A stretch of 64,000 bases of DNA from Vairimorpha necatrix (taxonomy: Eukaryota): the NCBI GenBank assembly GCA_036630325.1, contig CP142732.1:1-64000 (forward strand). The letters are read 5' to 3'. The stretch's first letter is position 1. The number at the start of each line of letters is the position of its first letter. The notes below the pieces were generated by a model that made no database searches, was not told the DNA's origin, and worked only from the letters and a program-made list of their open reading frames with translations. Made by a program: the position numbers and the translations under genes. Positions 5,481-63,341 of this stretch are shown piece by piece.

Positions 5481-5599
5481 TTCATATTTATTAATATTTT
5501 TTCTTCTTTTATCTTAGTTTGTATTTTTTACAAAAACACTGTTTCTTGAGTTCTCTCTTTCTACCTTCACTAGTAGTCTCATTTTATAATCATTTCCTT

Positions 5600-12470: not shown

Positions 12471-12639
12471 AAAAAAAATTATTAATTTGTCATATATTTA
12501 TTTCATTTTAATTTGTTTAATTCATATCTAAATATTGAGACAATAAAGTTTATTTTAGAAAATAACATAATAATTTGATGTTTTAATATATATAAACAAT
12601 CTTTAAATACAAATACGACATAATTACTATTATGTTTTC

Positions 12640-25827: not shown

Positions 25828-25877
25828 ATGCATTTTCAGCTGTTCTTATTTTTTTCATATTTTGCAAGATTTGTCTT

Positions 25878-25913
<36 letters not shown>

Positions 25914-35900: not shown

Positions 35901-36146
35901 TCCAATTAATCATATTGATCAAATTTTTATCAATAATAAAATCCTGAAGTTCAGGAACTTACTTGTTTTATCGACTGCTTTGTTGTCACATCTTTTACAT
36001 CTTTCTTATTCTGATGATTGCTTCAACTCTCTTGGGCTTCTTTTAGTAATTTTCTCTTCTCTTAAACACAGGTCTCACTTGTTACCCTTTCATCTTTTGT
36101 GTTTGCCATGTTATACATTTATTTAATAGGAGGTTCAACTTTAACA
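32971..36146 (-). mobile_element. Decayed family-1 Gypsy with 38-39 bp LTRs, copy B
   Basis: LTRs at 32971-33009 and 36109-36146; TSD ttata at 32966-32970 and 36147-36151; VYMDD in ORF 34711-34947; CCHC knuckle at 35701-35660. Confidence 0.9.
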
Positions 36147-42100: not shown

Positions 42101-42487
42101 AAACAATGATTATTGGTACTGTCAAACATCTCAGAGTATTGTAAATAAACATAAGACATGTTTGACATTCACAAACTAAAAGTAAGACAAGTGCATGTCA
42201 CATGAAGTACTACTAATTCAGTAGAACTTCGGTTTCATGTTTGTTTGTTTACATCTCAAAGAGTTTGACAGTTAATCTAATTGACTATTTAAACGGAATT
42301 TACCCCTGACCTACAATTCCGATGAGCAGCAAAACAAACAAATAATATAAATCAATATGTTAGTTTAGACTCACCACTTCAACTTCGGATCAGGCCTCAT
42401 GCCGGATATAAGATGTGTGGATACTCCATTCAGAAAAAAAAATTATTAATTTGTCATATAATTATTTCTTGTTTTTATGTTTAATTC

Positions 42488-44465
42488 TGAGGTATTACCC
42501 GGGAGTTGGCCATTCCTCAGATAGCATTCTATAATGCTTCTCCCTGGTATTAAAGTTTTATTATAATTTAAGTTGTATTATTAAATCTGCCTCCTTGGGC
42601 TTTATCTTCCCTTTTCTGGGGATGCATTGATTGATACTGCTGATTTCTAGACTCCTCTGTTCTTCTTGACATATTTTGGTGGGGGTAAAAATAAAAAGAA
42701 AATATTTATATAAAAATAAATTCTAGAAAATTCATTTGGAGGAAAATATAATAATGTGGTAAATAATGCCACATACTACCTTCTCTAAAGGGTCAGCAAA
42801 TTAGAATACGGATTCCTCCGAAATCATCATATAGTTCTTTCCGCCGTTTCCTAGTAATAGCTGGGTAGGATATTTTAAACCTCAAATCAAGGTATGAGTT
42901 CAACTTATCATATTTGAGCTCTCAAATTCACCGTTTATTTCATATCTACATATGCTAAATGGCAACTGCTGCATTTTATTTTTGAGGCAATGTTTTCTGA
43001 AAGTTCCAAGATTTAATTTATTTTTATTCTAATAACTATCATATTTAGATGTTGCCAAATCTTTTACATGTGCATGGTTATCTTTAATTTTATCACGAGG
43101 CTTGCTTCTTTCTTTGTTATTTATTTTAATATTTCTTGAATATATATCATCTGATGGTATCGTATTCCCTGTCCTTTTCACAAAGTCAACTATATTAGTT
43201 AAGACTTTAGCTAGAAGATTGTCTATTTTTTATTCAAATTCCTTTTAATACAATTATCTATATTATTTATTCTTTCATTTATACTTTTCTGTTTATTGAT
43301 GATTTTATTTTCTTTTTGTTTCTGAATTAATAGGCAGTCGGTTTTTTATGTTTTATATCCAATTCATCGTAGGAATTTTTTTTTTATCATTAACGATTTT
43401 TCTTCTTTTTTTATTTCACTATCGTTGGCTTTTGGTTTTCTTAGACGACAATCTCGTGTATCATGTGATCTTGCTCGATGTATAGAGCACCATTATCACA
43501 TTTAAAGTATCTTCCTGTTTCTTCAGGTCTTTCATAAAGCTCTTTCTTAGATATAAATTGCGATATCGTGTCCCAACAGTTTCGCCTATAAAATAATCAT
43601 TTCTTCCAGATCTTGTGAATATTTTAATAGCTTGTTTGTTCCCTTGTTTTTCATTCCTGATTTTAAAACTTCAATGGCAGTTGATCTGCCTAATCCTCTC
43701 TCAAAAATCTGTTTCAATCTAACATCAAATTCCTTTTCGATAAGTTCATAGATATTCCGTATATTTCAATCATCGACTCTATTTTCTCGTAGTAATCTGC
43801 TATACTTCTATAATTTACCTGTTTTACAGTTTCCATCTCTGTTAATAATAAAGCTACATCATTTTTTGGATATCTAAATTCTAGTAGTTCTTTTTTTTTT
43901 TGTTTTTTGAAGCTTTTCTTATTTAGCTTATCTTTCACCTTAGAATCTTCAATCAAAGGTTAGTAGATGAGTCCCATCTGCTCATCAGTCCATTTAATGG
44001 CCGTTCCTAGCTCTTCAAACAGCTCGAGATGCTTTATGGTGCAGTCAAGTTTTACATTTTTCAATTTTTTCTTTAACCACTATTGTAGTTCCTTCTATGG
44101 TTTTATCAAATGTGGTATATGCTTCATCATCATTTTATTTCTCAGTATTATTACTTTTTTCTAATACTAATGAGCTCATTGAGGTATTACCCGGGAGTTG
44201 GCCGTTCCTCAGATAGCATTCTATAATGCTTCTGACGGGTATTAAAGTTTTATTATAATTTAAGTTGTATTATTAAATCTGCCTCCTTGGGCTTTATCTT
44301 CCCTTTTCTGGGGATGCAGTGATTGATACTGCTGATTTCTAGACTCCTCTGTTCTTCTTGACATATTTTGGTGGGGGTAAAAATAAAAAGAAAATATTTA
44401 TATAAAAATAAATTCTAGAAAATTCATTTGGAGGAAAATATAATAATGTGGTAAATAATACCACA
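42488..44465 (-). mobile_element. Internally deleted Gypsy LTR retrotransposon (family 3), no RT visible
   Basis: 286-bp LTRs at 42488-42773 and 44180-44465 (about 6 mismatches); TSD aattc at 42483-42487 and 44466-44470; PPT tagagaaggtagta; empty site near 12519-12523. Confidence 0.93.
43440..44364 (-). pseudogene. gag: gag of family-3 Gypsy, initiating inside the 5' LTR
   Basis: ccccc-accaaaat-ATG at 44364; YPKND...IADYYEKIE resembles YPKYE...IEEYYNEID of family 2; knuckle WCSIHRARSHDTRDC at ~43492-43448. Confidence 0.8.
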
Positions 44466-44589
44466 AATTCATATTTAATATAAAAAAAATATAGTTTAAT
44501 TTCAGAAAATAACATAATAAATATCATTGTTATAATATATATAAACAATCTTTACAAATATATACAACATAATTACTATTATTTTTCAC

Positions 44590-44800
44590 ATAAAAATGAA
44601 TTATAACGAGATATGCTAATGATGTTTTATATTCTAGTATATTCTGAATAGGTTCGCGTTAGCGTCTCCTGTTTGTGGGCAGCTTATCGACTCTTAGTCA
44701 TTTTCAAAGCGGAACCCAAACATCTCTTCGGTAGTCTATTGGAATGCTTAAGTTTGTCTTCTGTAATCATCTTGATGTACGCTTCTACTTTCTTAGAGTA
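44590..44800 (-). mobile_element. 3' fragment of RLE-type LINE (family 2), paralog of 12640-12850
   Basis: gttagcgtctcctgtttgt and gatgtacgcttctac are shared with 31600-31740. Confidence 0.75.
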
Positions 44801-45294
44801 TTTGATAGTTTAACCTATTTTTTATTTTATATAAAACAACAATATTAATATTATATTATATTTTTATTCAAATGTATATATATCTTCTTTATTTTACTCT
44901 ATAAACTAATTTATTTACTTTTTTATATATCATTTTTGTTTAATCATAATATATTTAAAAAAAAATTTTCAAATATTTTCATTAAATGAAGATAATTTCA
45001 GATTCCAAAATATATAAATTAAATATTACAAAAAGATTAGTTTCATTAAATATAATAGACAAGATTAATATGAACCTAGCATCGATAAAGAATATTAGAA
45101 TTCTACAACGCTTGATCTGATGATTTATCCTTCATTTAGTATTTATTGTAAGATAATCAGTTGTTTTAATTATCTTTATCATAAAAAAAAAGCAAAATTC
45201 AATACCGACAACCAAATTACTACACACATTCTTTTACATGGCCAACATTTTTTTCTAAATATATTTTTTTATACTAAACTCTAGATTTTTACTG

Positions 45295-45326
<32 letters not shown>

Positions 45327-48300: not shown

Positions 48301-51023
48301 TTTACGTAATGAAATCTAAACATATCAAATATTAAATTGCAAAATATATTACTCTATTGTATATATGTTGTAAAAAATGATTTTATTTATATTCAAATGC
48401 ACAAATAATTATAATATCGTGTTTCTGACTTTATATTTCCTTTATTTTTCAACTTTTGTTCATTTTACTATCTTAAATAACTGATTATTTGTCTTCTATT
48501 TTTGGTTTTGTAAGTCAAAATTACTATATCAGTCCTATAGAATAAAGTTAATAGTATATTCACACTGACTTTCTATTCTTAGAGGATAAATGAAACGTGA
48601 ATTTTATTTTTTAATTTTCTCTAATTTTGTTTTTAGATTTTAACTATTATATTGCCAAAGAGAACAATCATTTAATTGTTTACAATACTTAATTTTCATC
48701 GATTAGGTTCATTATAATAAATTGTTTATTCTTTTTACATATGAATATTTTTTCTTTATAAATTAATCGATATTATAATAACTCAGAAACAAACATTATT
48801 TCTTATTATATATCATTAAAAACGTTATTGTTGATTATGTAAAGTCTGTACGATTAAAATATTTGATGCAATTATTTCTGGGGTATTTCATTCTTTTATA
48901 CATATATACATCTGGTTGTTGCAATAAATATGAACTTATTACCAAGATTTTTATATCTTAGTATATTATGTATATTTTTATTAAGCACTTGCCATGTTTA
49001 TTATATCTACACATATCTTCGTAAAAGCTTATAAATTTTGCTGAGATTTTGAATTTTTAGTATCATATAATTTTTATTTCATTTTATATATAGACTTTGA
49101 GGTTGATTTACGCCCTAAAGAAGGAATATTGTTGTTTTCTTTAATGTGTTTTTTCAGCGCTTTTCGATCCTTAATGTTTAATCTTTCCTAGTCTTTTCCT
49201 AAAAGTGTCTTGTTTAAGTAAAATGCTAATGACTAATTGAAGATATTTAAAACACAAGAAACATTTGTTGAAAAAATCTTTATATGTCTTTATTACATAT
49301 ATTTAATGCTCATTTTGCCATTTAAAGTCAATCCTTGTTTTTGTCTTTCAATATACTTGGCAATAATAGCTATTCCTTTAGGGAGAGCACGTCTTAGTAT
49401 GCAAATGACTCGTAACACATAGATTATTCAATTTAGTAGTATTTATGGGAAATCTGTTCAAAATATAAATTTCTTAAATCATCTAGTACGGTTGTTAAGA
49501 TAAATAGCTCCAAAACAATGTATTTAACAGTGTTTGTTGAATAAACGATTAAACTTTATTATTTTTGTTTCTATATTATACATACTAACTTTACTTTGTT
49601 TGCAAGCGATAGATATAATTTTAATTTTTCAGTCGCAAAAAATATTAAATCTATTTTTGAAGTTTGGTACTTACAATACTGTTTATTCTGAATTTTAATA
49701 TCAGATTATTTTTGTCTTGTCAATATTATTATCTCTTCTTAAATATATTTACATATACAAATAAATCTACTCTTAATAATTAGTTAGTTGTTTAGAATGT
49801 CAAGAATAATTACTTTCAAGCCTTCATGATATAGCTAAGTTCTTTTGTAATGAAATATTTTGGGGTGATTATTTTCCTCAAATAATTATCATGATTTTCT
49901 TCATCATCTTATTACATTTGTATATATATTGTCAAGTTTGGAAAATCTAAAATTTAAATCACTTAAATTAGAAATTATTGCATTTTAGACTAATTATTTT
50001 TCCATAATTTTTTTTCTGTCTTATTGTATATATATATATATATGTATATAAAATTTTCCTTATTTTAAAAATGAAAATTTAAAAACTTTATATTAGAAAT
50101 TATTGCAAGTAAGACAAATATTTTTTCATGATTTTTATCAACTTCTTATTTTTTATAAATGTGTATAAATTCTTTTCAATAATGAAAAAAACAAATCAAA
50201 ATTATGTCATTTTAGATAATTTATTTTTTCATGATTTTATTCTTATTCTTGCTGTTTAAATAATTTAACTTGTCATCCTTGAATAATTAAAAATTTAAAA
50301 GTTCAAAAAACATAATTTTGACTTATAGCCTTTATTTAATTTAATATTTCGTATTCTTGGTGCGTAGGAGAGAAGATGAAATCTTATACTTGAACTCAAA
50401 AGCAATTGAGTTAAAAATCCAATTGATATAGGGTATTATTATTCACTTAACTTCTACCAAATACTTTCGCTGCACTATCTCCGACGTAACCATTTAGATT
50501 TGATGAGTTTATTTTTATATACAAGCCTCTAATCGCATCATTAAATCAAAAAATATATTAAAATGAAGATTTTAAAACCTCTGTATAGATTTATCGTTTT
50601 AATCTAGTGTCGATATTATATATATAAATCATCTAGATCTCAGATGGCTCTTCAACTACAAAGACACTAAAAGCAAACTTATTAAACTTCTTTGTCTTTA
50701 ATGAAATAATTGAACATATCTCCATCTTATACTATATCTTGTTTGTATAAAAACAAACTTCATAAATTTCTACATCAAGAGTGCCATAATTGGCTTTTAG
50801 GTCCCTATAGAATATACAGCTATGGTATTATGAAACACAGAAGGACAAATTATATGTAATAAGAATTTAAAGTGTGAATGTATTTAAGAAATTAATGATC
50901 AATTCATACAAGAGATACTTTTCAAAATATTTGTTTAGTCTATCAATTTTGAAATATTATATTTAGTGACGTCTATATGTCCGCCAGTAGATATCTTTAT
51001 ACTTAAAATAAATTTAAATTTTC

Positions 51024-51092
51024 TCTTACCGGGAATCTCACCTTGGACCTTCGAAATCCTAAATCAAGGTGCAACCATTCTGCCAAGCACGA
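51024..51092 (-). pseudogene. Degenerate tRNA(Pro, AGG)-like sequence or SINE head, copy B
   Basis: A box TGGCAGAATGG; anticodon loop TTAGGAT; B box mutated (GGTGAGATTCC). Confidence 0.5.
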
Positions 51093-51842
51093 TTATTTTA
51101 ATTTTTTGTTATCCTTTAAGAAAACCAATTATAGTTCAACTTTATTTATTTTTGTTTTTCTTTCTATGCATAAAGAAAAATTTCAAATTAGTCAGATTAA
51201 AAGATCATTAATCTGAATGAATCAAATAATAGAACAATTTACAATGTTAGTTTTATGCTTTCTTTTGGAAAATAAATTATATAAGATTTTCTTTGATCCA
51301 AATATACATTTCTATATATATATACATGTTATACTAAAAAATAGTAAACATTTTACACTGCAAAAACAAGTATATGTCCTATATTATATACAAAATACTT
51401 TCATATGTGACCGCACAATTTAAGATTTACTGGCATCGTATTTTAATCTCTCTATTATATCTGGCAATTTTGTTATTATTATTTTCTATACCTCTAAAGT
51501 AAATTTTTTTAAATAATTTTTTCAACAAGTTAAAACTGTCATTTGTAAGAATATGTTTAATATGTATTTGATCTGCTACAACTATATATGAACTACATTC
51601 TTTTAAGAATTTAAACTAAAAAATAATAAAAACATATTTATGTGATTTAACTAATATTCTTTATTGAGATTTTGTTTTTCTTAGATACTGTGATGTACAT
51701 TACTACAACACATGGACAGATGTCTAAAATATGTCAACCGTTTCGGATGGCATGTCAAGTTGGGTCACACAATCAAACGAAAGTTGCATGGTCGTTACTA
51801 CATTCGTAAGTACGCCAATGTTTGTGTTTAGTGTTGACAACA

Positions 51843-52170
51843 TATAAAAGATTTATTGAGTTAATTTATCATTAAAGTTAGATTGGCACAGTTTCCCCCT
51901 GTATCGCTCACTAGATTCGGCTCTTTATAGACTTTGGTTTCTGTGGAATTATTTATGTTTTTCAACTCCAAATTTTGAGCTTCATTCTCGTATACCGACA
52001 TCGCTTGTTCAACAGTCGCCATATTCGCTAGTGCGCTTAAAGCTCTAACCACTTCTTCTAATGCATAATCTTTATCGTATCTTGTTCGTCGTTCCAAAGA
52101 GATGTTTCTCTGGAGTTTTCTTCATCACATTAGACTGGATGTATGCTTCCAGAAATGTTTAGATTTCTGC
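51843..52170 (-). mobile_element. 3' fragment of family-1 LINE, copy B
   Basis: ORF 51861-52097 matches the C-terminus of the 701-aa ORF. Confidence 0.9.
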
Positions 52171-52559
52171 AGAATGTAAATAAGATTTTAAAATATTAAT
52201 ATATATGTACACAATAATAATATAGTTTAGAAATAATAGATTCCTGAACTTTTAAAATTTTACAACTGTAACTTTTATTAAGGAAAAAATATTTTATTTT
52301 GACATTACGATTGATTTTTAGTAAAAATTTAATTAAATTTTGAATTTCTTCAAAAATGTCAGCAGAAAATAAAAAATTTAAAGGCCGTATTGTTTTTCAA
52401 AAAATACCATCTGGTCATCTTTTTAATTGAGTTGTTACTCTGTAGACAAAGAAAAATTAGCAATAAATTTCAAAACAAGATCGTCGAATAAAGAGTAATT
52501 AACATTTTTGTTTAGTTTTTGATTGTATATTTTTTAATTAATTTATAAAGTAAAATTTG

Positions 52560-53633
52560 GACTAAAATCAGCTTTAGTGTAAAAAAAATGGGGGGTCAAA
52601 ATTTTTAAAAAATTGCCCCTTTTTTTAAAAAACGAAGGGAAGAGAAAACTTCAGAAAAAAAATAAAATATAATTAAGATATAAAAATGAATGAAAATTAA
52701 CTTTAAAATAAATAAAATATATCAAAAACATAATTTTAATAATGCTTTGAAGATGTCTTCGCTCTCATTTCTTTTAATCATATATAGAACTAAATATATT
52801 TCAGCAAATTCATATGTTCTACACCTATTGGGTATAGAGGCTTTTAAAAACCTCCAATTTCCTTCGATGATGTTTGTATGGACACCTGTTTCATTATCTC
52901 TAAATGTTTGACTGTGATTTACAGTTCTATGGTCCGCGTAATGGCTTTTTAACGTTATATAGGCCTTCCACATATCGGAATGAATGATAGATTTCAAATT
53001 TACATGCTTAAATAAGATCGGCAGCAATGTATCCTTGTTTCTTTTATTGATTATGACAAATATTATTTTCTTTTCTGTTGTTCTTTCTACCATCCCAAAA
53101 CACCAAAATTCTTTAACTAATTTTCCCCTGTGGTATTTATTCTTACCTATTTTACTTTCGTCGATCTCCACTATGATATTTTCGCCTCCTATTTGTTTTG
53201 TTTTATTTATATATTTTTCATAAATTTTTAATTTATATAATTTCTCAAGTGTAGCACTTACATTTTGCATATTACAGTCCAAAATTTTAGAAATATGCGC
53301 CATTTTAAGTCCCATTGTTCATAGATTAACAATTTTCAGCATAAGAATATGATCTATCTTACTATTTGAAAATAGGTTATTATTCCAAATTGAAAATCTT
53401 TGGCCGCATTTGGGAAATTTACATCTCAAATAAAATGTTTCGTTAGATACTATAGATGTATCCCAGCCACAAATTGAACATTTCTGTTTATATTTCTTTC
53501 TTAGCAGATGTTCATAAAAATCTTCAATTTCTTCTTTACTCAGCATTCCCTTCGTTTTTTAAAAAAAAGGGGCAATTTTTTAAAAATTTTGACCCCCCCC
53601 CCCATTTTTTTTACACTAAAGCTGATTTTAGCC
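52560..53633 (-). mobile_element. Merlin DNA transposon 2
   Basis: ~80-bp TIRs (52560-~52641 and ~53547-53633); 8-bp TSD aaaatttg at 52552-52559 and 53634-53641; empty site at 20562-20569. Confidence 0.95.
52722..53546 (-). pseudogene. Merlin transposase with a single in-frame TGA at 53321-53319
   Basis: Both ORFs are in one frame (CTA TGA ACA ATG). CSIC/CKFPKC zinc finger; VEIDES, IHSDMWKAY, TVNHS and HTNIIEGNW motifs. Confidence 0.92.
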
Positions 53634-53869
53634 AAAATTTGTTTTATTTTTGCTATTAAATCCTTTAAATTCAAAATATACGCTCTTTTAAATTTTTGTT
53701 TATTTTAAATTTCCCTCCTAAAATATTAAATAAAATTTTTTTGTTTATGGGCAATGATAAATCAAGATTGGATTGGTGTATAAAAGAGATAAAATAAGTT
53801 TGGAGTGACAAAATATTTCTGAAATTAATACTACTATAAATGGAGGATTATACAATATCTAATTCAAGA

Positions 53870-54173
53870 CAGTCAATTTTTTTTCTAAGGTAATAATCTC
53901 TAAATTTTATGCTCAAGATCTTTTTTTATCAGCTAAAGATGATGATACGAATTACATACTTCAGAAATTTGAGTACCATTGGTTATACCAACTTCAATGG
54001 ACAAGACCTTATAGCGCTTGCGCATCCACGTGTCGCGAGAAGTTGAAAAGTTAAAATATAAATGTATATTAAAATTTCCGAAGTATTAAATTGTATAATA
54101 TTCATTAGCTGATAAATAACATCATGAGCATAAATATTTAAAATTACATTAACAGTGAAAAAAACACAGGCTG
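53870..54173. mobile_element. MITE-like element, copy B of 20803-21108
   Basis: Same inverted arms and GC-rich core. Confidence 0.65.
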
Positions 54174-55125
54174 CCACAAGAATTGTAATTTTACTTTTTA
54201 CTATAATTATAATAGAAGCTCTTCCGCTACATTAGCTTTACCCAAATTTAGCTATATAATCTATTGATTGATAAACATAAGGATCACCGGTCATATATTT
54301 CTAGTCCGTAGAAAATAATGATTTTAATGATCGCATTTATACCTAATTATTGTTTAATCAAACATAAGTATGATTATTACATAATCATTGAGAAGAATGT
54401 ATGCGAAAACTTCTATAGATATAAGGTTACCATTATCTGAATAAATGTATCAATTATTAAAAGGGATATTAGAATTAAGATTAAAATTATGAATATTAGA
54501 TTATTTGGAAACAGTTTTAAGTAGAATAAAGGTGTAATTTTAGACATTTCGAGTATTTAAATAATCCTACTTGCTAATATTATTTATTGAGCATCAGTCT
54601 GATGAATTGTGTGATATGTGTAAACAGGAATATTTTGATGATGATTATTCTAGTTTTTTTATTTATGATTATGAGAATTTAAATAGATAATTTATTAAAA
54701 CTTTTAGAATGTTTAAGATTTTATATGTCCCTTCTATATACTGATATAAAAAATGTGAAAATTAAAAACGTTATCATATTTAGTGTTATAACACTATACG
54801 ATTAACAATGAATATTTTTAATTAAGAAGTATTTATAAATATTCCTAATTCTCAATTTGCTTTTAATTTAAAACAGATGTATAAGGATAAATTCTAGAAA
54901 TATCGAAAACAAAATATTAAACAAAAAAGTATTTTTTATATATATTAGAAATTGTTATTAATGAGGTTTCTATATAAAAGAATACAAGAAATATTAGTTC
55001 AAAATGTTGAGTCCTTTTTACTTTTTTTTGATCTACTACTGATTTACGAGTATATATTATACGATCAGATATAAAATATTTTCTCTAATAGAAAAATACT
55101 AACATAACAATCAGATATATATAAA

Positions 55126-55172
<47 letters not shown>

Positions 55173-55399
55173 TTCGTTTTAGTTAAAGTGGTCTAATCAT
55201 CTCCTGAACAGGTTTGCCAATATTATCTTATATTAAATGTAAGCTTTTAAAACTATCCTTTATTAAATTTAATTTTGATCTCGTAAAATCATGAGATATC
55301 TTAAGTTCAAGTGTTATAACTAATTTTATAATATCCTATATTTGGTCGCAAAATTCTATGTTATACTACCATAAGATATCGTTAGAATATTAATATATA

Positions 55400-55612
55400 A
55401 TTTATTTGGGTATAATATTCGGCTTATTAATTATTTTTTACAAGATACGCTTACAGTCTCATCTGGCAGTTCCAGGACTTCCTTCTGAGATTCACTCATT
55501 GGGCTCTCGAAACCCCCTTCCTGATCTGTATCAAGCCCATGTCTGGCTGACATAGTTAGGCTTTCTAAAGTCATTTTAAGGACTCTTGACTGTATATATG
55601 CTTCCGTGTTTA
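55400..55612 (-). mobile_element. 3' fragment of RLE-type LINE (family 3)
   Basis: TEAYIQSRVLKMTLESL resembles LEAYIQSIVMKKTLESI; AATAAA on the minus strand near 55405. Confidence 0.8.
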
Positions 55613-56258
55613 TATACATACTGTTAATTTTTAGATTATTTTTTTAATCAGTTCAAAAAATTATTAAAAAACATCTTCTTTTTTTCAAAAATAACACAAT
55701 TCAATTTAGTTATAAGAAAACGAGAGAGCATGAGTTAAAGAACAAAAATATGCTATAAAAAAGAACTAGTAATTTTATTTAAATTTTTTTACGACTAAAC
55801 TTTCTTATTAGTTTTTTTATCACAATGTTTAATTAAAGTTTTTTTCACATGTAACTCCTCCCATCTATGCTGTGTTATACCTTCCAAGCGCTTTTTGATT
55901 TGAAGTTTTGTTTTGGATATCACGTGTTTAATTAAATCAATATTCATTTCAGATTAAAAATCTGATGTCCACAAAGTATAAAAATAGAACTTGTACTGGT
56001 AAATAAGAGTGAAAATAAAATATTGTGACATTGATATTCTTAATTTGTTACTTTTTTTTGGCTTTTCAAATTTTCAAAACATTAATTAAAATTTTAATTT
56101 TTCTTTTTTTCAAAAAAAATAAATTAAAAATTCATAATCAAAAATGGTAAATTAAAAAAATAAAAAATGTATTAAAAGCTTATACATAGATCATAAACAT
56201 CTTTTAATATTTTTGTAGAAGTTTTATAAAATATCGAAGATTTTTTATTTATTTTTTT

Positions 56259-56291
56259 GTATATAAATAAATTTTTTCTTTACCCCCCATT
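56259..56291 (+). promoter_or_regulatory. Microsporidian-type core promoter (TATA-like element plus CCC motif)
   Basis: gtatataaataaattttttctttaccccccatt immediately precedes the ATG. Confidence 0.7.
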
Positions 56292-57938
56292 ATGTTCATC
56301 TTACATGTCTTCTATATGTTTGTTTCTACACAAGCAATTTATAGATCTCTATGTAATAAAACCACGAAAGGGGTCAATCAAAAAATCGACGGAGGAGATT
56401 ATCGAATGCTAGATACTACTAAAAATTATGGTTATGCAGACTTATGGCATTATGAAAATAAGATAATAAGTTTTTCTTTTAAAATATTAAACTTTGAGGA
56501 AATAGTACCATCAGTAGAAATTGGATTTATAAATATTAATTGTGAGGGAAAATCTTTAGATATTATTCTTAATGAATATGAAAGAAAATTGATAGAAATT
56601 ATGAACAAATATAAATTATATAAGGTCTTTTTAAACTATATAGCCACTGATTTAAACGAATGCATATATTCTAATGAAAATATCATTATTAAGGACATTA
56701 TAGAAGGAATCAGAAAAATAAATGATAACCAAAATAATACAAATAACGAAAACAAATTTTTGCATCAAAAAACTATTCAAGCTTATATTAATGAGGAAAA
56801 ATCTATGATTCATATGATCGAAGAAGCTCCCTTAAAAACAAAATACTACAGATGTATAGCTAATTCATATGTTTCACCTAGGTATGATTCGAATGACGAC
56901 ATCATATGTATCAGTGTTCTAGTTTATATAGAAGAGGCTTACTTTTACTTCGAATTTTCCAAAGTCGAAATGCTGGACATAGTAAAACAATGTCTAAAAG
57001 AAAAGAACGACATTTCTTCCAAGTGTTTCGATTTATACAAAGATGCTTTTTTTTCTTCAGCTTTTTCTAATAAAAGTGTGAGATTTTTCACAGAAAAGAG
57101 GGGGAAAGTTCCGAATACTCTACGTCAGAATGAAAATTGCAAAATAATAAAATTATTAAGAGATGAGCTAGGTTTATTGAAGTGTCCTCAGAATAATAAC
57201 ACTACAATTAATCCAGTGCAAGAAAATAATTTGGAAAGCAGGAAATATGCAGAAAAAATGCAAGTTTTAATATCAAAAACAGAACACGCGGTCATCGATG
57301 CGTTTAATATTCTATTGAAAGAAAAAGAAATTGGGTTTCTCGTCAAAAGAATTTTGGATAGATCAAGAGGTCGGTTGAATATATTTTTCGGACATATATT
57401 AGTTTTCGATGAATTAATAGGCACAGAGGATTTAGAATGCCTAATCGAAAATAAAGGGAATCTTAACAGGAAAGCAATCATATCAAAGATATTTAACAGT
57501 AATAGGGACCAATATAGATATATTAAGGTATTTTTATTCGTTGAAGCAGAAACTTACATTAACAACGATGACGATGACGCCGCTGAAGGATCTTTTAAAA
57601 CTTTGAAAGAAATTGGAAATATTATGAAAGATAATCTCAGAAACGAAGATGCAAATGAGCAAAGTTCTCAATATTTGAATTTAGTTGATATAATGAATGA
57701 AGTAATTGTAAAACAAAGTGAAAACTTTGAAGTTTTTAGAATACTAAATATGACCAATTTTATTAAATTATTAGTCAATTCAAGTTTCAACGAAGACACA
57801 TTTTATACATATGAACGATATGGAGTAGATAAAAATGAATTCATAGAAATTTTTAAACTAGATCCAAGGAAAGTAGAAAAGGATATCAATACGATTGAAG
57901 AAAAACTAGCAGAAATTGCTGAAGAAACAAGAAAATAA
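56292..57938 (+). CDS. Hypothetical 548-aa protein, probably secreted
   Basis: Long intact ORF; CCC motif upstream; hydrophobic N-terminus MFILHVFYMFVSTQA; AATAAA overlaps the stop. No domain recognised. Confidence 0.85.
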   Translation: MFILHVFYMFVSTQAIYRSLCNKTTKGVNQKIDGGDYRMLDTTKNYGYADLWHYENKIISFSFKILNFEEIVPSVEIGFININCEGKSLDIILNEYERKLIEIMNKYKLYKVFLNYIATDLNECIYSNENIIIKDIIEGIRKINDNQNNTNNENKFLHQKTIQAYINEEKSMIHMIEEAPLKTKYYRCIANSYVSPRYDSNDDIICISVLVYIEEAYFYFEFSKVEMLDIVKQCLKEKNDISSKCFDLYKDAFFSSAFSNKSVRFFTEKRGKVPNTLRQNENCKIIKLLRDELGLLKCPQNNNTTINPVQENNLESRKYAEKMQVLISKTEHAVIDAFNILLKEKEIGFLVKRILDRSRGRLNIFFGHILVFDELIGTEDLECLIENKGNLNRKAIISKIFNSNRDQYRYIKVFLFVEAETYINNDDDDAAEGSFKTLKEIGNIMKDNLRNEDANEQSSQYLNLVDIMNEVIVKQSENFEVFRILNMTNFIKLLVNSSFNEDTFYTYERYGVDKNEFIEIFKLDPRKVEKDINTIEEKLAEIAEETRK

Positions 57939-58293
57939 AAATGTTTTCTAGCTAAACTTTATTTTAATTTGATTTAATTTTTATTTTATATGTTGTTAAA
58001 TCGTTTATTAATATTTTCCATCCCCTCTTTCCAGCATGAATTTATATATTTTAATTGGCCAATCATCATGCGACAATTGTATCATATTTTGTGGCCCCTG
58101 TACTGGCCACGACACTATAAATATCTACATTCAAAATTTTTCATTTTTTCTTATGATTAACAGAATAACATAGAATTTATTGGTCCTGCATGTCTTAAAC
58201 ATCATAAATCATTAAATTGCATATCTTTACAGTCAAAATCATGATACAAATAAACTTAAGACAAATTCTCAAATTCTAACCCGCGATAATAAT

Positions 58294-58992
58294 TGTCACA
58301 GTTCGGAGCGGACGCCAGGGGTAAAAAATTAAAAAAAATCTCTTCAGTGAGGATCGAACCAAAAAATAAGAACAAATAAATGTTCGTCTTAAATGATAAA
58401 CAAAGTTTTGTCTCGATTTTTTTACGGGTAAATTTTTGCTTTTTTTTTTAATAATGGGAGGGAATATTGAAAAAAAGGAGAAAAATAAAATAAACAAAAT
58501 TTTTAGTACTTTATTCATTACCAAGCAACCTTAGATCTCTAGTACTTATTTCTTCATTATAATATCATTATCACTTCTTTGCATAATTTTACTTTATTAA
58601 ATTGTATTATGTCTATTACAATACCAGTCTGTAAAAAGACAAAAACTTCTTGTCTTTCATTGTTATTCAATTTTATTTTCATGCCCTTAAAATTAAAGAA
58701 ATTTTAAATACAAATTACAAATAAACATCAATTTTTTTTAAATTTTTTACCCTTCTCAAGTAAGCATTTTCCCTTGCGTCCGCTCCGAACGGGTATTTTT
58801 TTTTTTATTTTTTACCCTTTTCAACTAAGCATTTTCCCTGGCGTCCGCTCCGAACGGGTATTTTTTTTTTAAATTTTTACCCTTTTCAACTAAGCATTTT
58901 CCCTGGCGGTCGCTCCGAGCGGGTAATTTTTTTTTAAATTTTTACCCTTTTCAACTAAGCATTTTCCCTGGCGGTCGCTCCGAACAGTGACA
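58294..58992. mobile_element. Non-autonomous TIR element with TGT...ACA ends and 5-bp TSD (Ginger-like)
   Basis: TIR tgtcacagttcggagcggacgccaggg / ccctggcggtcgctccgaacagtgaca; TSD ataat at 58289-58293 and 58993-58997; no transposase ORF. Confidence 0.85.
58741..58985. repeat. Four 65-bp subterminal tandem repeats containing the TIR core
   Basis: tacccttttcaactaagcattttccctggcgtccgctccgaac at 58748, 58813, 58878 and 58943. Confidence 0.92.
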
Positions 58993-59279
58993 ATAATTTA
59001 TTAGCATAGATCATAAAATGCTTCTCTTTTAAATTAGTGTGGTATTTCTCAGCGGGACCTTCCCCGTACTGAGAAAACTCTCTACTATATTTGTTATAGT
59101 GTTTTGATTATATTTAATATAATTTTTACTGTGGTTAATATATTTATTGTTATCATGGTTCTTGTTCATTCTCTCTGAAATACTTGCCCCTAAACAAATT
59201 ATTTTTATTTATACAAAAAATAATTCTAGAAAATTCGTTGAGATTTTTGACATCTCAACAATTCAAAAATCCCATGTGG

Positions 59280-60233
59280 TTAATACCACATACTACCCTC
59301 TCTAACCAACTTAACATTTTTGACGTGAGTCCATCCATAATCATCTGATAGTTTGATCCAAAATCCCTTTGCTCCAACTTTAATCACTTTTTGTATTTGC
59401 GGTTTAAATGGGGGTTCTAATTTTCGGGCTCTAAAATTTCGCTTATAAACCAAGTCTCCAACATTAATTTTTTTCTTAAATTTTTTCTTTTCATATATTA
59501 TTTTTCTTGGTTCATATATTCCTAGGACGTCATAGAAATCATATCCTTTGGCTAAGGCTACTGGAGAAGCTTTTATTGTCCTGTTATAATTGACATTAAT
59601 ATTATTCTCAGTTTTATTCACTACTTGTTTTAAACTCTTTCCTTTGTTTATAGTTAGCGAAAACGATATGTATTTATTTAATCTTTCTGAAATGCCGTTT
59701 GATGATGGCGTGTATTCAGGTACTAATATTTGCTTTATTTTTTTATTTATAAGGTAGTTTCTTAATTCTTGGTTGTCGTACTGTTTGCCATTATCGGATA
59801 TAATGTACTTTGGGCTTTCAAATCTTTCAATCCATTCATCAATAGCTCCAATGACTTTCCTCGCATTAACTTTTTCAAACACGTATAAATTCGTAAATCT
59901 CGTACATACGTCTGTTATGGACAGTATGTATCCTGTCTCTCCTAAAAAATCCGACTTATAATCTTTAACATTAAATGGACCATATATGTCCGTTGAAATT
60001 CGTTCAAATGCTTTCCTACTTTCGATGTTATTATTTTTGTCTATTTTATAATTTTTTATCTTTACTCTAGTACATGTTGTGCAATTTTTAACAACTTCAT
60101 GTATTTTCTTAACAATATTTTTTATATATAAATAGTTCTTTATATTATAATACATACAGGTAATTCCTCTATGTCCTCCCAACTCATGTATTGTTTTTAA
60201 AAGTTCAACAGATTTGTTATCGTCTATAATCAT
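59280..60233 (-). CDS. Integrase (frameshifted relative to RT/RH), ending inside the 3' LTR
   Basis: HELGGH...CTTC; STDIYGP, ISDNGKQY and NGISERLN (DDE triad). Confidence 0.95.
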   Translation of the reverse strand: MIIDDNKSVELLKTIHELGGHRGITCMYYNIKNYLYIKNIVKKIHEVVKNCTTCTRVKIKNYKIDKNNNIESRKAFERISTDIYGPFNVKDYKSDFLGETGYILSITDVCTRFTNLYVFEKVNARKVIGAIDEWIERFESPKYIISDNGKQYDNQELRNYLINKKIKQILVPEYTPSSNGISERLNKYISFSLTINKGKSLKQVVNKTENNINVNYNRTIKASPVALAKGYDFYDVLGIYEPRKIIYEKKKFKKKINVGDLVYKRNFRARKLEPPFKPQIQKVIKVGAKGFWIKLSDDYGWTHVKNVKLVREGSMWY

Positions 60234-62200
60234 CTTTCCTTTGTTGTCAAATTGTATTTTATTGTCAACTTTAAGACTAGCATTATAACTTCTTGCTCAT
60301 AATATTTTCTATTTTCATCTATACTTGAATATAAACATCTGGATAAAACATCTGCAACGACATTTTTTTTACCTTTTATGTGGTATATTTTATAATTGTA
60401 TTCGTTCATTAGCAGTTTCCATCTGTTTATTCTAGATGCAGAACTCTTGTTATCAAATGTACAGTTATGACTATCGGTGTGAATTTCTACGTAAGTCCCT
60501 TGTATTATTTTCTTAAAATGAATCATGGACAGCAGCATAGCAAGATATTCCTTTTCCACTATGCTATAGTTCAATTCTGCGCCATGAAGTTTCTTCGAGT
60601 AATAACTTATAACTCTATCTTCCTGCCTCAACACACTTCCAATTCCTGTGTCAGAAGCATCTGTCTCTAATATAAACTTTTTTTTATAATCAGGGTATTC
60701 AATTTTTGCATTTGTTTTAATCTCATTTTTTATCTTTTCAATTGTTTCTTTCATTTGTGTTGAGAAAACAATTTTTTTATCGTTTTTTAATAAGTTGGTA
60801 ATATCATTTACTCTTGTAGACAAGTTTGGAATAAATCTGCGATACCAATTTATTACTCCTATCAACTTTTGAATATCTCTTTTAGTTCTTATTTCTTGAC
60901 TGAAAATTTTATTGTTTAGACAATTAGTATTAGGAAATATTCCCTTTTCGTTTACCTTAAATCCAAGTACGTCTATTTCTTGGACAAAAAACTTAGACTT
61001 TTCAAAATTTATTTTGACTTCACTTTTTTGTAATGTTTTCAATGTTCTAAGTAGTAATTTTTGATGCTCTTCTTTTGTATTGCTAAATATAACAATATCA
61101 TCAATGTATACGAATAAATTTGGTATCTCCGAAAGTATGGTCGAAATATAACGTTGAAATAGTTTAGGTCCGGGCTTAATACCGAAGGGAACTCTTTTGT
61201 ACTCATATTGCTGTCCTAGTAACATAAAAGCGGTGTATTTTTGACTTGTTTCTTCAATTTTTATTTGGTTGAAGCCGTTTTGTAAGTCCAGCTGCGAAAA
61301 ATATTGATTTTTCCCCATTTCTAATAAACAGTCATCTATTTTAGGCAACACCCAAGGATCATCTTCCAACATTTCATTTATCTTTTTATAATCTACAACT
61401 AGTCGTAAGTCATTATTTTTCTTTTTTATAAAGAATGCCGGACTAGTAAATAACGAATTACTTTTCTCGATTATACCTTCTCTAAGTAATCTGTTCATTT
61501 CTTCACGACCTTGTTGTACATATTTAACAGGTACTGGGTATCCTTTAGACTGGATAACTTTAATATTATTCTTAATGAAAAATTTTGCACATGGTGCTTT
61601 TATACCTGAGAATTTACAATTTTGGGTCATGTAAAACTTTAAGACTTTATTTAACTCCGGATAATCCTGAATAATTGACAAACAAACCTTTTCACTAAGT
61701 TGATCATTTAATAGCTCTTCTGTAGTTCTTTCACTTCCCTTCATTGCTACTATGTTATCCTCATTAATACTAACTATTCTTTTTTTATAATTGATCATAC
61801 AACTATTATTCACTAAAAATTCATTACCTAAAATAAAAGGTACGGGTAATTCTTGAAGAACATAAAAATCTACTAAAAATTGCCTTTTTGCAATTTTAAC
61901 ATCTAGTGTAATTTTCTTTTTGCTAGTTTCGTTTTTTCCTCCCCCAAATTTTAATAGTATGGGTTTAGTTTCTTCAACTGTTAATTTATATTTATTAACG
62001 CTTTCTTCATTGACGTAATTGTAATTCGAACCAGTGTCAATAATTAAATTGATTTTGTTGTTCTCGAACTCTCCTTCAATCTCAATATTCTCTAGGGTTT
62101 TACATTTTTCTTCATTAATAATTAGATTCCTTGTTTCATTATATGTTTGTTTACTATTATCCTCTCTGTTATTTTTAATATTTTGTTTTTGATTTAAAAA
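60230..62200 (-). CDS. pol: pol: aspartic protease, reverse transcriptase, RNase H
   Basis: IIDTGS at ~62044-62027 and ILGNEFL are in frame with ORF 60230-61813; LRLVVDY, YIDD, ETDASD and ADVLSR motifs. Confidence 0.95.
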   Translation of the reverse strand, partial: FLNQKQNIKNNREDNSKQTYNETRNLIINEEKCKTLENIEIEGEFENNKINLIIDTGSNYNYVNEESVNKYKLTVEETKPILLKFGGGKNETSKKKITLDVKIAKRQFLVDFYVLQELPVPFILGNEFLVNNSCMINYKKRIVSINEDNIVAMKGSERTTEELLNDQLSEKVCLSIIQDYPELNKVLKFYMTQNCKFSGIKAPCAKFFIKNNIKVIQSKGYPVPVKYVQQGREEMNRLLREGIIEKSNSLFTSPAFFIKKKNNDLRLVVDYKKINEMLEDDPWVLPKIDDCLLEMGKNQYFSQLDLQNGFNQIKIEETSQKYTAFMLLGQQYEYKRVPFGIKPGPKLFQRYISTILSEIPNLFVYIDDIVIFSNTKEEHQKLLLRTLKTLQKSEVKINFEKSKFFVQEIDVLGFKVNEKGIFPNTNCLNNKIFSQEIRTKRDIQKLIGVINWYRRFIPNLSTRVNDITNLLKNDKKIVFSTQMKETIEKIKNEIKTNAKIEYPDYKKKFILETDASDTGIGSVLRQEDRVISYYSKKLHGAELNYSIVEKEYLAMLLSMIHFKKIIQGTYVEIHTDSHNCTFDNKSSASRINRWKLLMNEYNYKIYHIKGKKNVVADVLSRCLYSSIDENRKYYEQEVIMLVLKLTIKYNLTTKER

Positions 62201-63064
62201 ACATTCTCGAGTGTTGTGTGATCGAGATTTATGTATCGAACACCACTTGTTATGATTGATATTTCCTTGAATATATACCTTATTGTGATTACCTTCTCTC
62301 GGTTTTTCATAAATTTTTAAATTCTTAATCTCGGTTTGGATTACGATTCCTTCTTTCTAATTTTTTTAAATATCCTATAATATTTTGTAAAGGTTCTCCT
62401 TCCAAATTCTGTTTCAGCAATTCTAAGCTAGTAAATTGCCCTAATCCATTTTCGAAGATCTCGTTCATTTTTCTTTCCCTTTCTTTACTGCTGTAATTGT
62501 TAACGTTACTTAAAATGGTAATCTTTTGATCAATTTCATTGTAATATTCTTCAATGGTTACAAAATTTTCTTGTTTGATGTTTCCAATCTTTTACATAAT
62601 AATTTTATTTCATATTTCGGGTAGATAATTTCAATTAATTCCTTTCTTAATTTTATATAGCTTTCATCGGATAAATTATGTTTCATATCATCGTCAAGTA
62701 AACTTTTATATACTAAGGCCATTTGTTGGTCTGTCCAACTATTGCTTTTTGCAATTTTTTCGAATTCTTCCAAATGCTGAAAGTTACATTCCTTTTTTAT
62801 ATTTTTTATTTTGTAAATTTTTTCCTTAATGTTTACATTAGTGCCTTTAATCGTATATTCAAATGTACAATATCTTTCTTGATGTATCTCATATGTAGAT
62901 TGTTTCTCCTGAGATTTTCTTATTGAATTCAATGTGGTATTTCTCAGCGGGACCTTCCCCGTACTGAGAAAACTCTCTACTATATTTGTTATAGTGTTTT
63001 GATTATGTTTAATATAATTTTTACTGTGGTTAATATATTTATTGTTATCATGGTTCTTGTTCAT
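62200..63064 (-). pseudogene. gag: gag of family-2 Gypsy; starts inside the 5' LTR, two frameshifts, CHHC knuckle
   Basis: ORF 62558-63064 plus continuations in other frames; WCSIHKSRSHNTREC at ~62246-62201. Confidence 0.85.
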
Positions 63065-63341
63065 TCTCTCTGAAATACTTGCCCCTAAACAAATTATTTT
63101 TATTTATACAAAAAATAATTCTAGAAAATTCGTTGAGATTTTTGACATCTCAACAATTCAAAAATCCCATGTGGTTAATACCACAATTAGTTTCATTTTA
63201 AAAAAAAATTTCCCTCTGTGGTTAATACTCAATCCTCTTAAGATGAATTAAGTCTCTTTGTGACCTCCCGTAGTTATAAGTGTTATTGTTCTTCACATTA
63301 ATCTTTTATGTGGGTATATAAAAAAAGAAAAATCGGTATAT

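What the first reader, a model, noticed from the sequence alone, without database searches (positions are those of the whole stretch)
62922..62933. 12-bp palindrome in place of the tRNA primer-binding site in two diverged Gypsy families, with compensatory changes
Seen: on the sense (minus) strand, the 5' LTR of family 2 ends ...ACCACA and is followed by TTGAATTCAAT, with no TGG-starting PBS. The terminal A plus the next 11 nt form the perfect palindrome ATTGAATTCAAT. Family 3 has AATGAGCTCATT in the identical register (44169-44180). The four differing bases form two symmetric pairs (2/11 and 6/7), so palindromy is kept although the encoded residues change (TLNSI vs SMSSL). Established: LTR elements normally prime minus-strand DNA here with a tRNA, or in Tf1-like elements with the transcript's own 5' end. 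Inference: two genomic RNAs may anneal through the palindrome, and a cut at its 3' side would leave a 3'-OH exactly at the partner's U5 boundary, i.e. tRNA-free priming in trans. It could instead be only a dimerisation signal. I do not know a described precedent but could not search.
Basis: partly seen in the sequence, partly recalled or inferred. Interest (0 to 1): 0.92.

Follow-up and report, generated by a model that had tools for sequence, protein, structure and literature searches.

The report
Palindromic primer site in microsporidian retrotransposons
Two jumping genes in this parasite-like genome carry a 12-letter palindrome exactly where such elements normally bind a tRNA to start copying themselves, and their relatives in other microsporidia appear to keep it, which points to an unusual and still unexplained way of starting reverse transcription that has one published parallel in fungi.

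Summary
Two Ty3/gypsy LTR elements (minus strand) have exactly defined LTR ends with 5-bp target duplications. In both, the last LTR base plus the next 11 nt form a perfect palindrome: ATTGAATTCAAT and AATGAGCTCATT. The four differences are two complementary pairs. No TGG-type tRNA site follows, and no LTR segment is complementary to the site, so a Tf1-type self-primer is not supported.

The gag frame reads through the site, so relatives could be tested from protein alone. All 22 representative relatives that cover the aligned pentapeptide (Nosema granulosis, Vairimorpha apis, Anncaliia algerae, Dictyocoela and unnamed contigs) can encode a perfect 12-nt palindrome there. 20 of the 22 fit N-W-TGA-NN-TCA-W-N, against 0.04% of background windows. 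One fits in a different reading frame. DNA was seen only for the two window copies.

Fungal GalEa copia elements lack a PBS and carry a palindrome that includes the final A of the 5' LTR (PMC5445492); its mechanism is unknown.

My best reading is a self-complementary, tRNA-independent primer-binding and dimer site. Priming in trans is plausible but untested. I rate it a new variant of a known, unexplained kind.

The parts
62922..62933 (-). Family 2 palindrome ATTGAATTCAAT at the PBS position. Its first base (62933) is the last base of the 5' LTR.
44169..44180 (-). Family 3 palindrome AATGAGCTCATT in the same register. Its first base (44180) is the last base of the 5' LTR.
62933..63185 (-). Family 2 5' LTR, 253 bp, TGTGG...CCACA. 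It carries a TATAAATA box, and the gag ATG lies at 63064 inside the LTR.
59038..59290 (-). Family 2 3' LTR, 252 of 253 bases identical to the 5' LTR.
59038..63185 (-). Family 2 Ty3/gypsy element, 4148 bp. TSD CTAAT lies at 63186-63190 and 59033-59037. The purine-rich tract AGAGAGGGTAGTA lies at 59291-59303.
62558..63064 (-). gag ORF, 168 aa. It starts in the LTR and reads through the palindrome as T-L-N-S-I.
60230..62356 (-). Stop-to-stop frame of 708 aa; its ATG-started part (60230-61798, the part scanned) holds RT and RNase H (Pfam RVT_1, RT_RNaseH). A protease upstream is inferred from the aspartic-protease Pfam accessions listed for relatives, not scanned here.
59280..60296 (-). Integrase frame (Integrase_H2C2, rve), in a different frame from RT.
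62940..62971 (-). Predicted U5 stem-loop (UUUCUCAG...CUGAGAAA) ending 6 nt upstream of the palindrome.
42488..44465 (-). Family 3 element, internally deleted and decayed, 1978 bp. Its LTRs are 44180-44465 and 42488-42773. TSD GAATT lies at 44466-44470 and 42483-42487.
12519..12523 (+). Empty target site (AATTC on the + strand) of the family 3 insertion, in the paralogous copy of the segmental duplication.

Best explanation
The 12-nt palindrome is a selected, self-complementary nucleic-acid element. In a microsporidian lineage of single-ORF Ty3/gypsy elements it takes the place of the tRNA primer-binding site.

The most likely mechanism is inferred, not shown. In the packaged RNA dimer the two copies of the site pair with each other in a 12-bp PBS-PBS duplex whose first pair involves the last U5 base. 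The element's RT/RNase H then nicks one strand at the 3' edge of the duplex, as Tf1 RNase H nicks its 11-bp RNA duplex. The new 3'-OH primes minus-strand strong-stop DNA on the partner RNA. The same duplex would serve as the dimer linkage.

Shown: the palindrome, its register, the compensatory changes, the absence of a TGG site and of a 5'-end complement, and clade-wide compatibility.
Inferred: RNA-level pairing, the cut and the priming.

I put about 0.85 on a functional self-complementary element replacing a tRNA PBS, and about 0.4 on priming in trans from a nicked partner.
For: 1. There are exact palindromes in the same register in two diverged families, with two compensatory pairs. Codon choice alone would give the palindrome about 1% of the time.

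2. The site is conserved across the clade. 22 of 22 representative relatives covering the aligned pentapeptide can encode a perfect 12-nt palindrome. 20 of 22 fit N-W-TGA-NN-TCA-W-N. Background rates are 2.2% and 0.041% of 530,202 windows.

3. The pattern of variation fits base pairing.
- Codon 2 is Leu (TTG) in 14 sequences, all followed by a codon 5 that can start with A. It is Met (ATG) in 7, all followed by a codon 5 that can start with T.
- The middle codon is only N, S or I (AAT, AGC, ATA), which gives self-complementary centres AT, GC or TA.
- Two cases with Met fixing base 1 as G are matched by C at base 12.
- On a weakly supported gag tree there are at least 5 changes of the 2/11 pair and at least 6 of the centre.

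4. The Anncaliia algerae relative P0170 fits TTTGAATTCAAA in a different reading frame, as FEFK. This argues for a nucleotide constraint rather than a protein constraint.

5. No alternative primer site was found. There is no TGG downstream, and no complement in the LTR or elsewhere in the element better than 9 of 11.

6. Predicted homodimer duplexes are -10.8 and -15.5 kcal/mol, and dimers of 72-nt leaders pair through the palindrome.

7. Three primer classes are known (tRNA, half-tRNA, self-primer), and Tf1-type self-priming depends on a cut in the element's own mRNA (passages of PMC6317226 and PMC4600332). That Tf1's own RNase H makes this cut within the 11-bp RNA duplex is recalled, not read in any call.
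Against: - No experiment or RNA data bear on this. No RNA run was listed and no transcript ends were mapped.
- DNA of the site was seen only in the two window copies. For relatives the palindrome is inferred from amino acids.
- A primer made from a whole 5' RNA fragment would need further trimming. My account of that trimming, by RNase H after fold-back of the nascent DNA, is speculation.
- The invariant TGA/TCA core shows that not just any palindrome is used. That could mean a sequence-specific partner, although the coding constraint (L/M, S) may explain it.
- In relatives whose inferred base 1 is T, G or C, the LTR cannot end in CA at that base, so the register relative to the LTR end may differ.
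- The published parallel (GalEa) has a second, downstream complementary copy that forms a hairpin. That copy is absent here, so the two systems may not work alike.
Confidence: 0.4

Rival explanations
1. The palindrome is only a dimer-linkage or packaging signal, like a retroviral DIS or the palindromes within the MMTV PBS. Minus-strand synthesis is primed by something else that has not been recognised.
For: Palindromes at or near the PBS contribute to dimerisation and packaging in MMTV (PMC4264320, passages). The predicted intermolecular duplex is favourable. Centre and outer-pair covariation fits any intermolecular pairing.
Against: Every LTR element needs a primer site abutting U5, and none other is visible: no TGG and no LTR complement. 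Known DIS palindromes sit in hairpin loops, in addition to a PBS rather than in its place (discussion passage of PMC5445492).
Confidence: 0.2
2. The palindrome pairs in cis with another part of the same RNA, forming a hairpin as in the GalEa Conserved Hairpin Site. That structure either primes by fold-back after a cut or recruits RT.
For: GalEa CHSeq1 is palindromic with the LTR's final A. It pairs with CHSeq2 12-41 bp downstream (PMC5445492, section 10).
Against: No partner was found within 150 nt on either side. The best matches were 8 of 12 and 7 of 12, reached or exceeded in 1670 and 1936 of 2000 shuffles. Nothing better than 9 of 11 was found anywhere in the element. A hairpin would not require the centre dinucleotide to be self-complementary, yet it is (AT, GC, TA).
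Confidence: 0.1
3. It is a DNA-level binding site for a dimeric protein, such as a host bZIP-like factor on TGA..TCA half-sites or the element's integrase. It would act as a downstream promoter or regulatory element.
For: The TGA/TCA half-sites are invariant in 20 of 22 relatives. From my own recall, TGA-NN-TCA resembles CRE/AP-1-type sites, and Ty1 has regulatory sites inside its coding region.
Against: Protein half-site recognition does not require the centre dinucleotide or the outermost pair to stay complementary, yet both covary. The position exactly at the U5 boundary is where priming occurs.
Confidence: 0.08
4. The site is complementary to an internal part of a cellular tRNA, as in copia-like half-tRNA priming. 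Read as primers, the two window sites end in ...UUCAA and ...CUCAU. These could be anticodon loops of tRNA-Leu(CAA) and tRNA-Met(CAU).
For: Half-tRNA priming is established for several copia lineages (PMC6317226 passages). Position 8 of the palindrome is always T, as U33 would be. This is my reading.
Against: A fixed cellular RNA cannot explain symmetric covariation across 12 different inferred palindromes (11 of the core type, one other), including base 2 with base 11. A contiguous 12-nt palindrome is not expected in an anticodon arm. Half-tRNA use was found only in copia lineages in the plant survey. This was not tested directly: no tRNA is in the window and no genome is held.
Confidence: 0.07
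5. It is chance, or a by-product of a conserved peptide motif ([LM][NSI]S).
For: The peptides are similar across relatives, and the relatives are homologous, so the counts are not independent.
Against: Codon choice in both window copies is exactly the palindromic one, with a probability of about 1% for TLNSI. The residue class at codon 5 tracks L versus M without exception, 14 of 14 and 7 of 7. P0170 keeps the DNA word in another frame.
Confidence: 0.03

Closest known systems
Conserved Hairpin Site (CHSeq1/CHSeq2) of fungal GalEa Ty1/copia retrotransposons (Donnart et al. 2017, PMC5445492; section 10 in full and passages of the abstract, background, discussion and conclusions read)
   Same: There is no tRNA-type PBS. 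A short conserved sequence directly after the 5' LTR is palindromic only when the final A of the LTR is included. Variants arise by substitutions at paired positions. LTRs of about 250 bp are bordered TGT..CA, the TSD is 5 bp, and there is a single large ORF. The authors found no 5'-end complement and state that no known model fits.
   Different: GalEa is copia, not gypsy, and its hosts are Pezizomycotina, not Microsporidia. Its palindrome is 10 nt (A+CTGATCAGT or A+CTAATTAGT), not 12 nt. It has a second complementary copy 12-41 bp downstream that forms a hairpin, and none is found here. Here the site lies inside the gag reading frame. Their list of variants (Additional file 4) could not be read.
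Tf1/Tf2/Tj1-type self-priming (Tf1/sushi group of Ty3/gypsy)
   Same: Initiation is tRNA-independent. The RNA-RNA duplex of 11 bp abuts U5, compared with 11-12 bp here. The primer is released by a cut in the element's own RNA. The polyprotein is a single ORF, and a U5 stem-loop lies next to the site.
   Different: In Tf1 the PBS is complementary to the first 11 nt of the mRNA. Here nothing in the LTR is complementary, the best match being 8 of 11. The only perfect complement is the site itself, so pairing would have to be between two RNAs.
Retroviral dimer initiation sites and the palindromes within the MMTV PBS (PMC4264320, passages)
   Same: A short palindrome in the 5' leader at or near the PBS can pair two genomic RNAs.
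   Different: In those viruses the PBS is still complementary to a tRNA and priming is by tRNA. Substitution mutants of the MMTV PBS palindrome did not affect dimerisation. Typical DIS palindromes are 6 nt long and sit in a hairpin loop.
Half-tRNA priming (copia, Osser, Bianca and others; PMC6317226, passages)
   Same: The PBS does not begin with TGG and abuts the LTR.
   Different: That PBS matches an internal tRNA segment and is not palindromic. The covariation seen here is not explained by a fixed tRNA.

Membership tests
Ty3/gypsy LTR retrotransposon | Domain order RT - RNase H - integrase (a protease before RT is expected but was not scanned here), between LTRs bordered TG..CA and flanked by short target-site duplications | tested here: met
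   Pfam RVT_1, RT_RNaseH, Integrase_H2C2 and rve in that order. LTRs and 5-bp TSDs. Empty site. Nearest proteins are microsporidian gypsy polyproteins.
LTR elements primed by a full-length tRNA 3' end | A PBS beginning TGG (complement of CCA) within a few nt of the 5' LTR end | tested here: not met
   No TGG in the 60 nt after either LTR (printed), nor in roughly 70-80 nt read by eye. By contrast, the distant metagenome relative L001 has TGGGGGCTCGTCC after its LTR.
Tf1-type self-primed elements | PBS perfectly complementary to the first ~11 nt of the element's mRNA (a segment of the 5' LTR downstream of the promoter) | tested here: not met
   The best complement of the 11-nt site anywhere in the LTR is 8 of 11 (family 2) and 7 of 11 (family 3), not contiguous. 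The transcript 5' end itself was not mapped.
Half-tRNA-primed elements | PBS complementary to an internal tRNA segment ending in the anticodon arm | not testable with these tools
   No tRNA gene in the window and no genome held. The covariation of inferred variants argues against it.
GalEa-type Conserved Hairpin Site | A conserved sequence after the 5' LTR that is palindromic when the LTR's final A is included | tested here: met
   compared with PMC5445492 section 10
GalEa-type Conserved Hairpin Site | A second, inverse-complementary copy (CHSeq2) 12-41 bp downstream that forms a hairpin | tested here: not met
   The best downstream matches, 8 of 12 and 7 of 12, are no better than shuffles.
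GalEa-type Conserved Hairpin Site | Element belongs to the GalEa clade of Ty1/copia (integrase before RT) | tested here: not met
   RT precedes integrase.
Retroviral-type dimer initiation site | A palindrome shown to mediate intermolecular RNA pairing, usually in a hairpin loop and in addition to a PBS | tested here: inconclusive
   The only evidence is a computed preference for a dimer through the palindrome. In monomer folds the site is a weak 4-bp hairpin or unpaired. No separate PBS is present.

The most novel reading that the evidence does not exclude
A fourth class of minus-strand primer for LTR retroelements. The PBS is self-complementary, two packaged genomic RNAs pair PBS to PBS, and a Tf1-like RNase H nick turns one RNA into the primer for the other. 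Dimerisation and priming would then be one and the same contact. The same principle would underlie the unexplained palindrome of fungal GalEa copia elements. It would therefore have arisen at least twice, or be ancient, in the fungal and microsporidian lineages.
Probability: 0.3. Interest if true: 0.85.

Novelty: new variant of a known kind. Interest (0 to 1): 0.65.

Why it matters
Three ways of priming reverse transcription in LTR elements are recognised: a whole tRNA, a half tRNA, and the transcript's own 5' end (PMC6317226). A palindrome in place of the PBS has been reported once, in fungal copia elements, with no mechanism proposed.

Finding the same design in an unrelated superfamily suggests a real, general and unsolved mode of initiation rather than a curiosity. 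The design here has a covariation pattern across Nosema, Vairimorpha, Anncaliia and Dictyocoela relatives.

It also gives a compact, testable system: a 12-nt site with natural compensatory variants. In addition, automated LTR annotation that requires a tRNA-complementary PBS will miss or misjudge these microsporidian elements.

Tried and rejected
- Whole genome: none is held.
- Tf1-type complement in the LTR or element: none found.
- CHSeq2-like partner: none found.
- tRNA genes in the window: none. Rfam families in the window: none.
- DNA of relatives:
  - A viral-contig scan with pol found no relative.
  - A genome-contig scan with the pol alignment found none.
  - A metagenome scan gave 16 loci at 24-40% identity. 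I judged these too distant by identity and G+C alone. I inspected two: L001 has a TGGGGGCTCGTCC PBS, and the L003 site was unclear. The other 14 were not examined for a PBS.
  - A degenerate 20-nt pattern of the junction gave 82 genome contigs stretches and 5 viral contigs (87 loci stored and examined). None of the 87 encodes gag or pol, so these are chance matches.
- Sequencing runs: 2 of the 4 listed runs hold 40-46% of the element's words, and no RNA holder was listed. Contigs of all 4 runs were laid on 43300-63299. The printed tables were cut (2387 further differences not shown) and showed nothing at 44169-44180 or 62922-62933. This gives no evidence either way.
- Word-indexed protein searches with alignments returned almost nothing useful: 30 mostly unrelated hits and 3 hits.
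- My first search for the empty site with a typed junction pattern found nothing. BLAST of the flanks then found it.
- Two paper runs failed on term syntax.
- Literature, as searched in the held library:
  - 'microsporidia' + 'LTR retrotransposon' + 'primer binding site': 1 unrelated paper.
  - 'Nosema' + 'primer binding site': 9 papers, none on this by their titles and abstract starts.
  - Parisot et al. 2014 (PMC4202319): no occurrence of PBS, tRNA or palindrom.
  - 'Conserved Hairpin Site': only the original paper and one TRIM paper.
  - The 2006 Nosema bombycis Nbr paper, which I recall, is not in the library and was not seen.
- Not used: structure prediction, complex prediction, atlas search.

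Full report
**Setting.** The window begins with an irregular CCTAA/CCTA telomere array. It is about 22% G+C and contains a roughly 30-kb segmental duplication. The nearest relatives of its retrotransposon proteins are from Nosema granulosis, Vairimorpha necatrix, V. apis, Dictyocoela and Anncaliia algerae. I therefore infer a Nosema/Vairimorpha-like microsporidian.

On the minus strand, 62933..62922 reads ATTGAATTCAAT and 44180..44169 reads AATGAGCTCATT. I fixed the LTR ends without reference to the palindrome.
- Family 2 has LTRs at 62933-63185 and 59038-59290, with 252 of 253 bases identical. They run TGTGG...CCACA and are flanked on both sides by CTAAT.
- Family 3 has LTRs at 44180-44465 and 42488-42773, 286 nt with 6 mismatches. 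They run TGTGG...CCTCA and are flanked by GAATT.
- The paralogous copy of the duplication holds the uninterrupted family 3 target, with the 5 bp present once, at 12519-12523.

In both families the first base of the palindrome is therefore the last base of the 5' LTR. The two 12-mers differ at positions 2, 6, 7 and 11, which are two complementary pairs.

Family 2 is a Ty3/gypsy element with RT, RNase H and integrase in that order. Its gag ATG lies inside the LTR at 63064, and the frame reads through the site as T-L-N-S-I. Family 3 is an internally deleted, decayed copy that reads S-M-S-S-L.

**More than chance.**
- Twelve-nt palindromes are common in the AT-rich window, at 163 positions, most of them in (TA)n runs. 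The two elements hold only 2 and 1. The per-position probability is about 5e-4.
- Given the peptide TLNSI and the element's codon usage, the palindromic encoding has a probability of about 1%, because TTG and TCA are minority codons.
- My hand estimate for four differences forming two complementary symmetric pairs is about 0.3%.

**What the site is not.**
- No TGG occurs in the 60 nt after either LTR printed, nor in roughly 70-80 nt when I read on. A tRNA 3'-end PBS is therefore absent.
- Nothing in either LTR is complementary to the 11 nt after the LTR. The best matches are 8 of 11 and 7 of 11, and they are not contiguous. The only perfect complement in each element is the site itself. The Tf1 rule, that the PBS complements the first 11 nt of the mRNA (PMC4600332 passages), is not met. 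The transcript start was not mapped.
- No second complementary copy lies within 150 nt.
- There is no tRNA gene in the window and no Rfam family.

**Relatives.** Because gag reads through the site, protein sequences of relatives carry information on its DNA.
- The sources were a search with pol, a full HMMER scan of 1.84 billion representatives with the 168-aa gag (23 hits), the word-indexed search (which added P0172), and cluster look-ups.
- 22 representative proteins cover the aligned pentapeptide: P0003, 4, 6, 7, 9, 11, 16, 17, 18, 150-154, 156, 157, 161, 162, 165, 167, 170 and 172.
- I dropped P0155, whose N-terminus is not alignable.
- I dropped P0160, which begins inside the site with ISKGE.
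- I dropped P0176 and P0177, which begin at the Met inside the site.
- I dropped P0001, 2, 5, 8, 10, 12, 13 and P0158, 159, 163, 164, 166, 168, 169, 171, which begin downstream of the site.
- I dropped the near-identical cluster members P0173-175 and P0178-180.

All 22 can be encoded as a perfect 12-nt palindrome at that exact place. 21 of them do so in the same codon register as the window copies.

20 of the 22 fit N-W-TGA-NN-TCA-W-N. Including the two window copies, the inferred words are:
- ATTGAATTCAAT
- AATGAGCTCATT
- TTTGATATCAAA
- GTTGAATTCAAC
- TTTGAGCTCAAA
- GATGAATTCATC
- ATTGAGCTCAAT
- TTTGAATTCAAA
- AATGAATTCATT
- CTTGAATTCAAG
- AATGATATCATT

P0162 and P0172 fit AAACTTAAGTTT instead. 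Over 530,202 background windows of the 171 proteins stored at that point, 2.2% are compatible with any 12-nt palindrome and 0.041% with the core type.

**The substitutions follow pairing rules.**
- Leu (TTG) at codon 2 is followed at codon 5 by I, T, K, N, M or R, all of which can start with A. This holds in 14 of 14 sequences, counting family 2.
- Met (ATG) at codon 2 is followed at codon 5 by L, S or F, all of which can start with T. This holds in 7 of 7 sequences, counting family 3.
- The middle residue is only N, S or I.
- Where Met fixes base 1 as G (P0004, P0018), base 12 is C.
- The Anncaliia protein P0170 has FEFK at the site. This spells TTTGAATTCAAA in another frame, the same word inferred for P0151, P0152 and P0154.

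On a gag tree built with the site masked, the 2/11 state changes at least 5 times, each time together with its partner. The centre changes at least 6 times. The tree is weak, however: 4 of 20 inner branches are starred, and only 2 independent pairs lie on starred branches.

Caveat: these results show compatibility, not observed DNA. The sequences are also homologous, so the counts are not independent.

**A precedent exists.** Donnart et al. 2017 (PMC5445492; section 10 in full and passages of the abstract, background, discussion and conclusions read) report the following for fungal GalEa copia elements.
- They lack a PBS.
[quoted passage not shown] - A complementary copy lies 12-41 bp downstream and forms a hairpin.
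- The authors found no 5'-end complement and state that no described model fits.

In the held library, 'Conserved Hairpin Site' occurs only in that paper and in one TRIM paper. My searches found nothing on a PBS in microsporidian elements.

The window elements share with GalEa the palindrome-with-final-A design, the short TG..CA LTRs, the 5-bp TSD and the single-ORF relatives. They differ in superfamily, in length (12 nt against 10 nt), in the absence of the downstream partner, and in lying inside the coding frame.

**Mechanism.**
- A fixed cellular primer cannot explain symmetric covariation over 12 inferred variants, so tRNA or half-tRNA priming is unlikely. It could not be tested directly.
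- A hairpin does not need a self-complementary centre.
- A dimeric DNA-binding protein does not need the centre or the outermost pair to stay complementary.
- What remains is pairing of the site with a second copy of itself. The only second copy is on another molecule.
- Predicted homodimers are -10.8 and -15.5 kcal/mol, and 72-nt leaders are predicted to dimerise through the site.
- Since the site sits exactly where the primer must end, I take it to be both dimer contact and primer-binding site. I propose that a Tf1-like RNase H nick at the 3' edge of the duplex on one RNA gives the primer.
- That step, and the later trimming of the primer's 5' part, are inference. I give this mechanism about 0.4. 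I give the weaker claim, a functional self-complementary element replacing the tRNA PBS, about 0.85.

**Verdict.** The claim of no precedent is wrong. I rate the finding a new variant of a known but unexplained kind, with interest 0.65.

Noticed in passing
window 1-2870: A telomere-like array of irregular CCTAA/CCTA units (TTAGG/TAGG on the other strand) with G+C skew of -1. It abuts a decayed retroelement directly.
   Followed up: partly
window 3020-6170 (minus strand), with a probable paralogous copy near 33-36 kb that I did not read: 'Family 1' is a decayed gypsy-like element with many stops. Its terminal direct repeats are only about 38 bp (TGTT...AACA). The 3' repeat is preceded by GGAGGGGGA, and the 5' repeat is followed by TGGCAAACAC, which looks like an ordinary TGG-type PBS. 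Such short LTRs are odd.
   Followed up: partly
window ~4100-20400 versus ~34100-52400: A segmental duplication of about 30 kb at 82-99% identity. The family 3 element is inserted only in the second copy, which shifts the spacing from about 29,965 to about 31,980.
   Followed up: partly
window 59280-63103: The family 2 coding region is split over four overlapping frames (62558-63103, 62325-62591, 60230-62356, 59280-60296), although its LTRs are 252 of 253 identical and relatives have one ORF. Possible causes are recent frameshifts, homopolymer errors of the assembly, or mobilisation in trans.
   Followed up: no
window 63170-63185, 59275-59290, 44447-44465; 63117-63131, 59222-59236, 44411-44425, 42719-42733: Both families start their LTR with a small inverted repeat (TGTGGTA...TACCACA). 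They also share an identical U3 word, GAATTTTCTAGAATT, although the rest of the LTRs differs.
   Followed up: partly
window 22402-22926 (+) and 52722-53315 (-): ORFs with an ISXO2/IS1595-type DDE transposase domain. From recall, these are Merlin-like DNA transposons, which are known in microsporidia.
   Followed up: no
window 25162-25697 and 25828-27933: Three tandem copies of a 159-bp unit lie next to a 701-aa ORF with a reverse-transcriptase domain but no integrase. This is possibly a non-LTR element. Long (TA)n runs flank it.
   Followed up: no
window 56292-57938 (+): A 548-aa ORF with no Pfam match at E <= 0.01.
   Followed up: no
proteins P0176, P0177 (cluster of P0153; P0176 is named Vairimorpha apis by its source, P0177 is an unnamed Logan protein): The deposited or predicted proteins start at the Met codon that lies inside the inferred palindrome (MNSL...). 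These gene calls probably miss the LTR-encoded N-terminus.
   Followed up: no
proteins P0001 and P0157: Close relatives of the element's proteins are filed in public records as 'Lactobacillaceae bacterium' and 'Clostridium sp.' MAGs. These are probably microsporidian contigs binned with gut bacteria.
   Followed up: no
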